From Eledone cirrhosa (taxonomy: Eukaryota), in the NCBI GenBank assembly GCA_964016885.1, contig OZ024753.1, forward strand, positions 3,720,001 through 3,784,000: a stretch of 64,000 bases of DNA. Reading direction: 5' to 3'. The notes under the pieces were generated by a model that saw only the letters and a program-made list of their open reading frames with translations, was not told the origin of the DNA and did not search any database. Shown here piece by piece: positions 30,418-62,960 of the stretch (positions within the stretch are counted from its first letter, which is position 1; every line of letters begins with the position of its first letter). Position numbers and translations under genes: made by a program.

Positions 30418-30586
30418 GTAATAATAATAAAATTGAAGACTAAAATTCAAAGAGGGCTCGATAAGGAAAATATATATCAAATATATAAGAACCGTAGAGC
30501 AAATATTTATTAAAATAACAGATTAAAGTTTAAGCAAAGAATCGCTGCTTTCACCCTTAACGGGATCTTCTGTTATTTTAATAAAT
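30418..30586 (-). mobile_element. Family D element with near-complete hammerhead
   Basis: Minus strand: GAAGA-T CCC GTTAA GGG T-GAA-AGCA gcgattctt TGCT-T-aaacttt. Confidence 0.8.
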
Positions 30587-30604
30587 ATATATATATTTAT
30601 ATAT

Positions 30605-31057
30605 GGAAAGTTATATTTAAATTGTTGGGTTACAACTAGTAAATATTTATAACTGATATAAAAGCACTCGACAAATATTTGGAGTATATTTACAATATTA
30701 AATAAATGGAAACTATATTTATAAAACCATATTTATTTCATTATATATATTTCAGGGATATCATATTAACAATATGCTATGCCTTCCTCAGACAAAATAC
30801 AATATAAACAGTTTTATAGATAAATAGATTCGACATACCGTAACAACATCTACTTGCATTTGAGAAGGTTGATTTGGTAGTCAAATGCAAGTAGATGTTG
30901 TTACGGTATGTCGAATCTATTTATCTATAAAACTGTTTATATTGTATTTTGTCTGAGGAAGGCATAGCATATTGTTAATATGATATCCCTGAAATATATA
31001 TAATGAAATAAATATGGTTTTATAAATATAGTTTCCATTTATTTAATATTGTAAATA
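30605..31057 (-). mobile_element. Family E fold-back element with hammerhead-like core
   Basis: ~175 bp inverted arms; CTGAGGA (30953-30959), stem II, GAAA (30991-30994); unique tail 30605-30686. Confidence 0.85.
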
Positions 31058-31621
31058 TTTATATATATATATATATTTATAAATATATTTATATATATTT
31101 ATATACGTTCCTTTAATGAATATATATATATATGCATGTGTGTGTGTTTGTGTGCGTTTTCATGTATGTATATAAACGCACACGGCCACAGATAGACGCA
31201 CGCACATACACACATATATGCATATATAAATTTCCAGTATATTTTTAATTTTTCATTTGGGAATCTATTTATTCATTAGTGATTTAATTTCTCATGCATC
31301 TGTGTCTCTGTGTGTTTGTGTCCGTGCGTTTGTACATGTGGTGTGTAGGGTGGGTGTATATGTGTGTATGGGGTGGGTGTATATGTGTGTGTGGGGTGAG
31401 TGTATATGTGTGCATTTGCTTGTATGCCTCTACACTTAAGAAAATATATCATGAGTGGAAATGCTCATATATTCCACTTTAACGCTGTTTATTTTCTGAG
31501 TGAGAGACGAAATGTAAACAAAGATATTTTGCACAAACGTATATTATTGATAGTCTGAAATAGAGAGGCACACATACGAACGCACACACACACACACACA
31601 CACACTATATATATATATCTG

Positions 31622-33969: not shown

Positions 33970-34247
33970 TCTGTGAATAATATAACCATGGAGTGAGTCG
34001 ATCGTAAAGATTGGATCAACTTCAGATGCTCTTCATCCTTCGAACCTACTGATTCTGAGCTCGCATTGTTCTTAAATCTCATTGATAAAGGTGCAGTTGT
34101 TTCGTCAACTTGCCTGAATTATATATATATATATATATATATAATTTTGGTAGTGTATATATATATATCCACACACAGGTGTGTGTACACTACCAGAATT
34201 ATATATATATCTATATACTCGTATATAGATATATATATATATATATA

Positions 34248-34683
34248 CGATATTGACAAATGGAAACTATATTTATAAAACCATATGTATTTCATTATAC
34301 ATATTTCAAGGACACCAAGTTAAATTATGGTGTGCTTTCATCAGATAAAATATAATATATAGCAGTTTTATAAATAAATATTGACATACCCTTAAAGAAT
34401 GCAACCATTACTGTTGGAAGCTTCCAACAGTAATGGTTGCATTCTTTAGGGGTATGTCAAAATTTATTTATAAAACTGCTATATATTATATTTTATCTCA
34501 TGAAAGCATACCATAATTTAACTTGGTGTCCTTGAAATATTTATAATGAAATAAATATGGTTTTATAAATATAGTTTCCATTTGTCAATATCGTATTTTT
34601 ACTCCAATTACTTGTTGAGTGCTTTATATCAGTTATAAAAATATTTGCTTGTTGTATCCCAACAATTTAAATAGAACTTTTGC
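34248..34683 (+). mobile_element. Family E fold-back element
   Basis: Palindrome centred at 34420/34421 (ggaag|cttcc). Intact CTGATGA on the minus arm (34338-34344); mutated CTCATGA on the plus arm (34497-34503). Confidence 0.85.
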
Positions 34684-35189
34684 ATATATATATATATATA
34701 TATATTCACACATTAGTTTAACGTTTGCAATAATTGTAAGAGAGTCTTAAGGTTTTAGTCATTCATCAAAAGAATAAGAAATAAAAGATGAAATAGGAAG
34801 CCATTTTATATATATATATGTATGTAAAGGACGATTATCTCTATTCTCATCATAGTTGTTACTGCCGACGGGAAGAGCCACAGTTGATTTTTAAATTCTT
34901 TTTCAGATTACGATATTTCAAAGTGTTTTTTGCTGTTATTTGCCCATTTGTAGTTGCTTACCTACAAATTGATATTTAGTTTCAAGATATATGATTGAGC
35001 CATCCCTGCCGTGGGAGATCTCTTATTTCCAGAATAGAAAATACAAGCCTGTCCAACATGTCAAATCTACCCATATATTCCAATCAGAAAGGGTATTATG
35101 TATCGGAGACCTAACGGTTATTCCTAATATGTCAAGTGTGTAGTCTCTGTTTCTACAGTGTTGTTATAGTTGAAAAATATCAAAACTGA

Positions 35190-61590: not shown

Positions 61591-61902
61591 TGTGTGTAAT
61601 TCCGCCGGAAAGGTACAGGAAAAAAGAGTGCTCTATGTAGGCTACAGAGCTTATTAGTTATGTAATAATAAACAAGATAATTATTTCATTTACCAGTGGT
61701 TTCTTGAAAGCAGATATATCTGTTTTCAGTCGTCAGAATGAATATAAAACATGCTGTTTTTTATTAAATATGGATTTGAAAACAAAAATATTTAAGAAAT
61801 ATGAAATTGAGGCTGAGAAACAAACGGACGAAAAAGAAGGATAGAAAAAAAATCTATAAAATTATAAATAAATATATATATATATATACATATATACATA
61901 TA

Positions 61903-62370
61903 TACAATGATATTAAATAAATGGAAACTATATTTATCAAACCATATTTATTTTATTATATATATTTCAAGGGTACCAAAACACTTTGGTACGCTTTCTT
62001 CAGAGAATATCCAGAGAAAATCCAACTGATAAGGTATGATTTTCCTGGATATGTCTCTATTTATAAAACAAACTTTGTATTTTATCTGAAGAAAGCGTAC
62101 CAAAGTTTGTTTTATAAATAGAGACATATCCAGGAAAATCATACCTTATCAGTTGGATTTTCTCTGGATATTCTCTGAAGAAAGCGTACCAAAGTGTTTT
62201 GGTACCCTTGAAATATATATAATGAAATAAATATGGTTTTATAAATATAGTTTCCATTTATTTAATATCATTGTATATTTACTCCAGTAAGCTGTTGAGT
62301 GCTATAAATCAGTTATAAACATTTATATTTATATTTTCGGATTTCCAACAAATTAAATACCCCTTCTACT
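61903..62370 (+). mobile_element. Family E element with nested inversions
   Basis: CTGAAGA at 62175-62181 and 62086-62092, stem II 62182-62209, GAAA 62210-62213; tail matches 30605 and 34600. Confidence 0.85.
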
Positions 62371-62960
62371 TATATATATATATATATATAGGGGTGTGTT
62401 TCTGTATGCATATGAATAAGCGTGTGCATGTATGCGTGGTAGTTTGCGTGTGCATGTGTACGTGTCTCTTTGCGTATACATGTCAGCCTGTATGTGGAGG
62501 TGTGTGTGCTTGGGTGTGTATGTATGTGTGCGTGTCTTCTTGGGTGTGTACGTGTTTGCCTAACAACGTGTGTGTGTGTGCGCGTTTGTGCGTGTGTACG
62601 TGTGTGCGTGCGTGTGTGTGCGTGTGTGCGTGTGCGTGTCTTCTTGGAAGTGTATGTCTGTGTATGTACTTGTGTGTGTGTCTTCTTATGTTTGTATGTC
62701 TATGTATGTACTTGTGTGTGTGTGTGTGTGTTCTAAGGTGTGTAGGTCTATGTATGTACTTGTGTGTGTGTCTGTGTGTGTGTGTGTGTCTTCTGGGGTG
62801 TGTAGGTCTATGTATGTACTTGTGTCTGTGTGTGTGTATGTCTTCTTGGGTGTGTAGGTCTATGTATATACTTGTGTGCGTGTGTGTATGTGTTTGTATA
62901 TACATGTGCGTGTGCCTTCCTGGGATTGTGTATGTGCTTGTGTGCGTTTCTTCTTGGATG

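What the first reader, a model, noticed from the sequence alone, without database searches (positions are those of the whole stretch)
62175..62235. Family E: hammerhead-like core whose stem II is rewritten but still paired in three copies
Between CTGA(A/G/T)GA and GAAA the three copies read AAG-C-GTACCAAA gtgt TTTGGTAC-C-CTT (62182), AGG-C-ATA g CATATT gtt AATATG a TAT-C-CCT (30960) and AAG-C-ACACCA..TGGTGT-C-CTT (34337, minus). The sequences differ but the helix and the C.C mismatch at position 4 are kept, which is strong by-eye covariation. Stem III is a minimal AT-rich or palindromic ATATAT like dimeric PLE hammerheads; the cleavage site is uncertain.
Basis: partly seen in the sequence, partly recalled or inferred. 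Interest (0 to 1): 0.82.

Follow-up and report, generated by a model that had tools for sequence, protein, structure and literature searches.

The report
Hammerhead ribozyme of Hydra-clade Penelope retrotransposon
The three motifs are the hammerhead-shaped RNA ends of a Penelope-like jumping gene with more than 30,000 copies in this animal genome; they likely cut themselves only in pairs or with help from the element's protein, a known arrangement whose one unusual detail is a kept C-opposite-pyrimidine mismatch.

Summary
In detail: all three copies carry CTGANGA, the stated stem II with a C.C at position 4, GAAA and an 8-nt palindromic stem III. They are 5'-truncated, two-armed insertions of a Hydra-clade Penelope-like retrotransposon; longer copies carry the RT/GIY-YIG gene between two hammerheads about 4 kb apart. 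The 3' half has 32,663 exact hits. It is a type I hammerhead with an 8-bp stem I; the predicted cut is after AUA (62221|62222). The flagged 62175 copy has lost its native stem I. 'Rewritten' overstates family E: only three stem II pairs change on both sides, each through a few events. A sister family (25,210 hits, RT 58% identical) is stronger evidence: stem III becomes ATGCGCAT, stem II really is rewritten, and position 4 stays mismatched (C.U, 29 of 29). No such mismatch appears in 26 published Hydra rows or 67 outgroup motifs. Hammerheads in Hydra elements are published, including an octopus family with a different ribozyme. Cleavage is untested and no RNA run was listed. The scan had no note on this sequence, but has notes on other Penelope hammerhead families of this genome. 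Verdict: new member of a known kind.

The parts
61900..62371 (.). Whole insertion: two-armed, 5'-truncated 3' end of a Hydra-clade PLE between (TA)n tracts, with an internally rearranged centre
   Evidence: self-palindrome 61900-62278, 95.8%; pieces map to long copy L067
62175..62181 (+). Hammerhead core C3-A9 (CTGAAGA); its native stem I 5' strand is replaced by a fold-back junction
62182..62209 (+). Stem II: 3 bp, C62185.C62206 mismatch, 8 bp, 4-nt loop
62210..62221 (+). GAA, palindromic stem III ATATATAT (62213-62220), H17 = A62221; predicted cut 62221|62222 (AUA)
   Evidence: sequence
62222..62229 (+). Stem I 3' strand ATGAAATA
62230..62371 (+). Rest of the pLTR up to the long 3' end
62078..62106 (+). 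Truncated half hammerhead with the native stem I 5' strand, core and 5' half of stem II
61900..62003 (-). Mirror arm: core at 62003, short 3' end, also without native stem I
30945..31010 (+). Complete hammerhead, subfamily B (core 30953, predicted cut 31002|31003), on the short arm
30734..30799 (-). Complete mirror hammerhead, subfamily B, on the long arm (insertion about 30585-31058)
34288..34352 (-). Complete hammerhead, subfamily C (core 34344, predicted cut 34296|34295), on the short arm
34489..34553 (+). Decayed mirror hammerhead (core CTCATGA, stem III ATATTTAT) on the long arm (insertion about 34245-34704)

Best explanation
The motif is a type I hammerhead fold in the pseudo-LTR of a very abundant Hydra-clade Penelope-like retrotransposon, and it likely cuts the element's RNA after AUA only as a dimer or with help from the element's protein. 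Shown: the motif lies on the ORF strand at both ends of pLTR-ORF-pLTR copies, 3.9-4.2 kb apart. Most copies examined are 5'-truncated ends in (TA)n; inverted pairs nearly always have one short and one long arm. Core positions are fixed across subfamilies while N7 takes all four bases. Inferred: two hammerheads, from the two pLTRs of one transcript or from two transcripts, pair their self-complementary 8-nt stems III; slow cleavage then trims tandem or read-through transcripts to unit length. The C.Y mismatch in stem II is kept in two sister families of this genome and is either tolerated or selected. The 62175 copy itself is likely a dead remnant.
For: Core intact in 92 of 96 parsed copies (100 examined); N7 = T64/A15/G12/C5. 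Stem I is paired at each of its 8 positions in 93-96 of 96, and its subfamily-level changes are G.U wobbles; the 3' strand was fixed by the search pattern and part of the 5' strand by the parser, so these counts lean towards pairing. Stem II pairs 2, 5 and 6 switch between A-U and G-C or U-A and C-G; 97.6% of cells are paired, 0 of 500 shuffles reach that, and slid controls give 40-50%. The sister family has stem III ATGCGCAT in 98 of the first 100 of 25,210 hits, a double change that keeps the palindrome; self-duplex -10.5 against -3.2 kcal/mol. Closing stem III within a monomer costs 2-3 kcal/mol. ORFs with RIRW, SDKT, YRDD, CxCX5C and C-terminal GIY-YIG-type motifs lie between or behind the hammerheads in L065, L066, L184 and L185. 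These match the Hydra definition in PMC8557442 section 11.
Against: No cleavage data, and no RNA run was listed. Rfam gives no hammerhead match at E<=10 on either stretch tested. Monomer MFE folds are weak (z -0.4 to -3.3 on the 114-121-nt stretches, +0.6 to -2.2 on the short ones) and often misregister stem I. The canonical G10.1-C11.1 pair and the extra base after A9 of metazoan minimal HHRs are missing. In Anolis Poseidon, hammerhead mutants did not impair insertion in vitro and no RNA-seq reads ended at the cut site (PMC11167929). Pair 8 of stem II is broken in 44 of 96 by end-anchored counting, partly because of a bulged subfamily.
Confidence: 0.8

Rival explanations
1. The fold is real but is kept as an RNA structure for binding or priming by the reverse transcriptase; self-cleavage is negligible or irrelevant.
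For: PMC11167929: catalytic mutants do not affect insertion in vitro. PMC4209133: low activity of metazoan PLE HHRs, other functions not excluded. The two 3' ends lie about 48 and 138 nt past the predicted cut, not at it.
Against: The catalytic core is fixed while N7 varies freely, and the stem III palindrome is kept through double changes. Both are signatures of selection on the catalytic fold.
Confidence: 0.13
2. A non-autonomous retrozyme or SINE-like repeat that spreads through small circular RNA.
For: Most copies examined are a few hundred bases long and non-coding; the window itself has no tblastn match to the element's protein. Retrozymes are proposed to be PLE derivatives (bioRxiv 10.64898/2026.07.22.740005, part 1 of 5 read).
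Against: 5' ends are ragged and run continuously into the 3' UTR and the endonuclease ORF. All three subfamilies are linked to an RT-EN ORF. No short head-to-tail arrays were seen in the copies examined.
Confidence: 0.04
3. The hairpins are by-products of fold-back copying or assembly chimeras in a palindrome-rich genome, and the hammerhead reading is chance.
For: The locus is a nested palindrome with template-switch-like junctions, and the window is full of AT palindromes.
Against: 0 hits in 100 shuffles; more than 32,000 dispersed copies; compensatory changes; hammerhead-like motifs beside related ORFs in 62 of 96 outside loci. The arms differ by about 4% and end at two fixed sites.
Confidence: 0.02

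Closest known systems
Hammerheads of Hydra-clade Penelope-like elements (Craig et al. 2021, PMC8557442; section 11, passages, File S1 Hydra sheet, File S2 and protein rows seen)
   Same: Type I hammerhead near the 3' end or pLTR; palindromic stem III; often no G10.1-C11.1; (TA)n targets; DKT, RWK-like and CxCX5C motifs; an Octopus bimaculoides family (Hydra-1_Obim) is listed, and its protein shares SDKTNNLY, KDHK and YRDD by eye.
   Different: Hydra-1_oBim has another ribozyme (6-bp stem I, fully paired stem II, ACCA-A-TGGT stem III). Here stem I is 8 bp, stem II is 9-16 bp with a C.Y at position 4, and stem III is an 8-nt palindrome without a loop. The unit is about 3.9-4.0 kb with a 1.4-kb 3' UTR, against generally under 3 kb. 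None of the 26 Hydra rows in File S2 lists a position-4 mismatch.
Minimal PLE hammerheads (Cervera and de la Pena 2014, PMC4209133; parts 1-2 of 4 and passages of supplement file 2 read; file 1 not searchable)
   Same: In pLTRs; long helix II; weak palindromic helix III; dimer model; many sequence families per genome; an irregular helix II is known (bulge in D. virilis).
   Different: Lacks the extra base between A9 and 10.1 and the G10.1-C11.1 pair; helix I is longer (8 bp against 4-5); helix III is a full 8-mer.
Poseidon PAc hammerhead of Anolis (Frangione et al. 2024, PMC11167929; passages and section 3 part 2 read)
   Same: pLTR hammerhead; two reverse-transcription start sites that define a 'tail', matching the two fixed 3' ends here.
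   Different: Different clade. The tail here is about 90 nt, against 30-40 quoted there. PAc was shown to be protein-assisted; this one is untested.
Metazoan non-LTR retrozymes (Cervera and de la Pena 2020, PMC7229834; passages only)
   Same: High-copy type I hammerheads with weak helix III; a U.U mismatch in helix II is described for the axolotl HHR_Amex2.
   Different: Those are short non-coding tandem units with circular RNAs; this motif belongs to an autonomous RT-EN element.

Membership tests
Type I hammerhead ribozyme | Core C3-U4-G5-A6-N7-G8-A9 ... G12-A13-A14-A15 ... U16-H17 (as listed in PMC3088659, passages) | tested here: met
   5' core intact in 92 of 96 parsed copies; the 3' core was required by the search pattern
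Type I hammerhead ribozyme | Pairs next to the core in stems I, II and III (1.1-2.1, 10.1-11.1, 15.1-16.1); stem I open-ended | tested here: met
   96 of 96 for stem I pair 1 and stem II pair 1. In the 62175 copy only the core-proximal pairs of stem I can form
Type I hammerhead ribozyme | Self-cleavage 3' of H17 | not testable with these tools
   No RNA holder listed; needs a bench assay
Type I hammerhead ribozyme | Match to an Rfam hammerhead model | tested here: not met
   No hammerhead family at E<=10 for 30930-31020 or 62160-62245; none among the 150 rows shown for the whole window
Type I hammerhead ribozyme | Tertiary contact between stems I and II | tested here: inconclusive
   An 8-bp distal extension of stem I behind an internal loop is kept in family E but is not evident in the sister family; no known contact motif was identified
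Metazoan minimal PLE hammerhead (Cervera 2014) | Palindromic helix III that allows a dimer | tested here: met
   ATATATAT 47, ATATGTAT 49 of 96 (these two were what the pattern allowed); sister family ATGCGCAT in 98 of 100
Metazoan minimal PLE hammerhead (Cervera 2014) | Extra base after A9 and G10.1-C11.1 | tested here: not met
   A-U in 86 and G-U in 10 of 96
Hydra-clade PLE | Single ORF, RT then C-terminal GIY-YIG endonuclease | tested here: met
   L185 ORF of 712 codons; L065 of 631; L184 of 692. Read by motif; Pfam gave no hit on two proteins. No fully intact copy among those fetched
Hydra-clade PLE | DKT instead of DKG; RWK-like N-terminal motif | tested here: met
   SDKTNNL in L065, L067, L184 (DKS in L185); RIRWRAF in L184; K is replaced by R
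Hydra-clade PLE | CxCX5C linker, no CCHH, CxxC and CxH around the conserved E and N | tested here: met
   CNCRDRSKC, CDLC, CKH in L185; absence of CCHH judged by eye
Hydra-clade PLE | Insertion into (TA)n; 5' truncation, pLTR, inverted copy and tail | tested here: met
Hydra-clade PLE | Placement inside the Hydra clade in an RT tree with the published sequences | not tested
   The published proteins were compared by eye only
Naiad PLE | N-terminal endonuclease, DKA | tested here: not met
   Endonuclease is C-terminal and the motif is DKT
Non-LTR retrozyme | Non-coding 150-400-nt tandem units | tested here: not met
   Copies are truncations of a 4-kb coding element

The most novel reading that the evidence does not exclude
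The C.Y mismatch at 10.4.11.4 is a selected docking site, for the distal part of the 8-bp stem I or for the element's reverse transcriptase. It has been kept while the stem II sequence around it was replaced between two families whose RTs are 58% identical. That would define a new architecture of type I hammerhead, with about 58,000 genomic hits, that acts as a protein- or dimer-gated switch pairing pLTRs 4 kb apart. A single C.C-to-C-G mutant would test it.
Probability: 0.2. Interest if true: 0.55.

Novelty: new member of a known kind. Interest (0 to 1): 0.3.

Why it matters
The class is known, so the finding is not surprising in itself. Its value is as material. It offers tens of thousands of natural variants of one PLE hammerhead, with a natural compensatory swap in stem III (ATATATAT to ATGCGCAT) that supports the dimer model; young subfamilies with near-complete ORFs; and a clean genomic record of two 3' ends. 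The role of hammerheads in PLE transposition is stated to be open in PMC8557442 and PMC11167929, and no Hydra-clade hammerhead assay turned up in my five paper searches. This family would be a convenient test case, and the kept C.Y mismatch is a single-mutation question.

Tried and rejected
Rfam on the whole window returned only low-complexity miRNA-type noise among the 150 of 746 rows shown; focused scans gave no hammerhead. Inverted-repeat listing was swamped by (TA)n. A DNA search with the 30930-31055 copy returned nothing because common words are skipped; a shifted query worked. Pfam gave no hit on two ORFs. Sequencing runs: no RNA holder listed; contigs of three runs of one sample cover the stretch at very high summed depth, but no listed piece spans it, so the locus-specific junctions were not confirmed. 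Viral contigs held no relative. ADAR-type bias as the cause of the many A-to-G changes in stems: flanks show shared A>G 29 per 86 A columns and T>C 31 per 107 T columns (noisy alignment), so no clear strand bias, and G.U tolerance is preferred. A family E subfamily that repairs C.C to C-G: not seen; 30 non-C loci were scattered over several subfamilies, with C.U the commonest state. One search lost rows through a key collision and was redone. R-scape is not available here. Supplement file 1 of PMC4209133 could not be searched and figures were not seen, so a similar mismatch may be drawn there.

Full report
Observation. The three motifs are present as described: cores at 62175(+), 30953(+) and 34344(-), each followed by a 3-bp helix, a C.C mismatch, a distal helix, GAAA and ATAT(A/G)TAT. 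Each has a mirror arm: 62003(-), 30791(-) and a decayed one at 34497(+). A hammerhead descriptor hits three times in the window and never in 100 block shuffles. The genome is 3.0 Gb in 1,796 contigs. It is probably an octopod: the named best homologues of the element's protein are from Argonauta and Octopus. I did not determine the species.

Anatomy. Native copies have TATTTT(A/G)T before the core and AT(A/G)AAATA behind stem III, an 8-bp stem I, so this is a type I hammerhead. A15.1-U16.1 closes an 8-nt palindrome and H17 is A; the predicted cut follows AUA (62221|62222, 31002|31003, 34296|34295). The flagged copy is rearranged. Blast to a long copy shows a short inverted arm (61900-62003), a forward piece that ends inside stem II (62008-62106), a reverse piece (62101-62170) and then the core at 62175. 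Its upstream reads GATATTCT, and the hammerhead fold scores 0.0 against -7.8 kcal/mol for a native copy. This copy is likely inactive; the 30953, 30791 and 34344 copies are complete.

Abundance and host element. The 28-nt 3' half, which leaves all of stem II but its last base free, has 32,663 exact matches; the control has 0. Copies have ragged 5' ends, common 3' ends and (TA)n flanks. Long copies run into a coding region. L066, L184 and L185 hold two same-strand hammerheads 4,024, 3,887 and 4,167 nt apart with an ORF between them. The ORF reads RIRW, SDKT, YRDD, CxCX5C, a GIY-YIG-type endonuclease, CxxC and CxH. These are the Hydra-clade marks in PMC8557442 section 11, and Hydra-1_Obim shares these motifs by eye. 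All three subfamilies of the window are tied to such ORFs; proteins of subfamilies B and C are 80% identical, and subfamily A pieces are 67-78% identical to C. None of the copies fetched had a fully intact ORF. Pfam found nothing in two proteins; 101 homologues at 29-47% identity exist.

Two 3' ends. Ends cluster about 60 and 150 nt after the start of GAAA. In 19 of 20 head-to-head pairs one arm is short and the other long (binomial p 4e-5 against one half; one arm is counted in two pairs, and the exception looks short by eye). The sister family shows ends near 55 and 144. This fits the 'tail' of PMC8557442 and the two RT start sites of PMC11167929, with a longer tail of about 90 nt. The link to RT start sites is inference.

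Covariation. Of the first 100 genomic hits, 96 had a parsable 5' half and 4 were truncated or damaged. The core was intact in 92, and N7 took all four bases. Stem II by position: 1, A-U 86 and G-U 10; 2, A-U 41, G-C 38, G-U 14; 3, G-C 92; 4, C.C 87, U.C 6, paired in 1; 5, A-U 65, G-C 22, G-U 6; 6, U-A 63, C-G 28; 8, paired in only 52. I aligned 41 sequences: two window copies, one subfamily A copy and 38 of the 54 stem II types. In it 97.6% of cells were paired and 40 cells had two-sided changes (0 of 500 shuffles each; slid controls 40-50% paired). But only 3 pairs vary on both sides, and that count is not above the shuffles (474 of 500). On a tree from the flanks of the 40 copies with an intact core, full stem II and long 3' end, these pairs need 2-4 changes per side. 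So the covariation is real but rests on few events, with G.U intermediates. The three window stems are point variants, not rewrites.

The mismatch. Genome-wide the 3' C is present in 30,674 and replaced in 820 hits (2.6%); the two paired positions beside it fail in 1,169 together. Within family E it is therefore about as conserved as its neighbours. Thirty non-C loci were scattered over several subfamilies, C.U most often. A generic scan found a sister family with 25,210 hits and an RT 58% identical over 369 residues. It keeps stem I, changes stem III to ATGCGCAT (98 of the first 100), and has a 16-bp stem II of different sequence with C.U at position 4 in 29 of 29 parsed copies (30 examined). 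Counted from the core, pairs 8-10 differ from family E by transversions on both sides, while position 4 stays unpaired. That is moderate evidence for selection, from two lineages only and by structural register. In 96 outside loci with related ORFs, 62 had a hammerhead-like motif; none of the 67 distinct motifs (a few of them spurious) has a 1x1 mismatch at position 4. Two with a similar stem I have C-G there (L284, L326), and one has a 2x2 U.U loop at positions 5-6 (L255). The 26 Hydra rows of File S2 show none either. The mismatch is thus lineage-specific and not needed by Hydra hammerheads in general.

Mechanism. Shown: position in the pLTR on the ORF strand, conserved core, compensatory pairs, and a palindrome kept through double change. 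Inferred: stem III is too weak as a monomer hairpin (closing it costs 2-3 kcal/mol) but forms an 8-bp duplex with a second copy (-3.2 for ATATATAT, -10.5 for ATGCGCAT; weaker, -2.2 over 6 bp, for ATATGTAT). The partner would be the other pLTR or another transcript; the two arms of an inverted insertion lie on opposite strands and cannot pair this way within one RNA. By analogy with PMC4209133 (low activity, dimers only) and PMC11167929 (protein-assisted, not needed for insertion in vitro), cleavage is likely slow and gated, and would trim tandem transcripts. Against: no Rfam match, weak monomer folding scores, no G10.1-C11.1, and no RNA evidence either way.

Literature. Hammerheads in PLE pLTRs and in the Hydra clade are published. 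Searches for hammerhead with octopus, Penelope-like with octopus or Hydra clade, and hammerhead with C-C mismatch or stem II mismatch found no description of this family's ribozyme. An O. vulgaris repeat annotation (PMC13282606, passages) has no occurrence of 'ribozyme' or 'Hydra' in its main text. The library lacks most subscription papers, and repeat databases were not searchable. The scan's own notes had nothing on this sequence and several on other Penelope hammerhead families of this genome.

Verdict. A genuine hammerhead motif of a known kind in a new, very abundant Hydra-clade family. Interest 0.3; the open detail worth a bench test is the C.Y mismatch.

Noticed in passing
window 61685-61742 (-): A second, unrelated type I hammerhead 160 nt from the insertion: 6-bp stem I, CTGACGA, long stem II, stem III ACCA-C-TGGT, like the published Hydra-1_oBim stem III.
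   Followed up: no
L218-L247 (G000:C1), e.g. L230:1425-1545: Sister Hydra family with 25,210 hits, stem III ATGCGCAT and C.U at stem II position 4; no match of its 3' half in the window at up to 2 mismatches.
   Followed up: yes
G000:C1 first 23 Mb; window 61900/62371, 30585/31058, 34245/34704: Inverted pairs have one short and one long arm in 19 of 20 cases, about 90 nt apart, in both families; a possible genomic record of two RT start sites.
   Followed up: partly
window 30919-31034; alignment A1 columns 12-19 with 111-118: Family E stem I continues behind an internal loop into an 8-bp distal helix; the 3' loop strand is nearly constant, the 5' strand varies in length.
   Followed up: partly
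L106, L115, L102, L039, L043, L057, L080, L009, L089: Several further hammerhead families lie in the fetched flanks, with stems III such as ACGCGT, ACTAGT, ACCATGGT and ATGATCAT.
   Followed up: no
L248-L265 (genome contigs): Hydra-type PLE ORFs with hammerheads sit in several bacterial MAGs and a symbiont assembly, probably host-animal contamination.
   Followed up: no
window 62008-62175: Nested fold-backs with short shared sequences at the switches (CAAAGT near 62101, TCTG near 62174), which suggests repeated template switching during insertion.
   Followed up: partly
L066:2-871 (-) and L065:2705-3276 (-): Fragments of more distant Hydra-type ORFs (41% identity for L066) lie next to family E elements, in line with clustering in (TA)n.
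   Followed up: no
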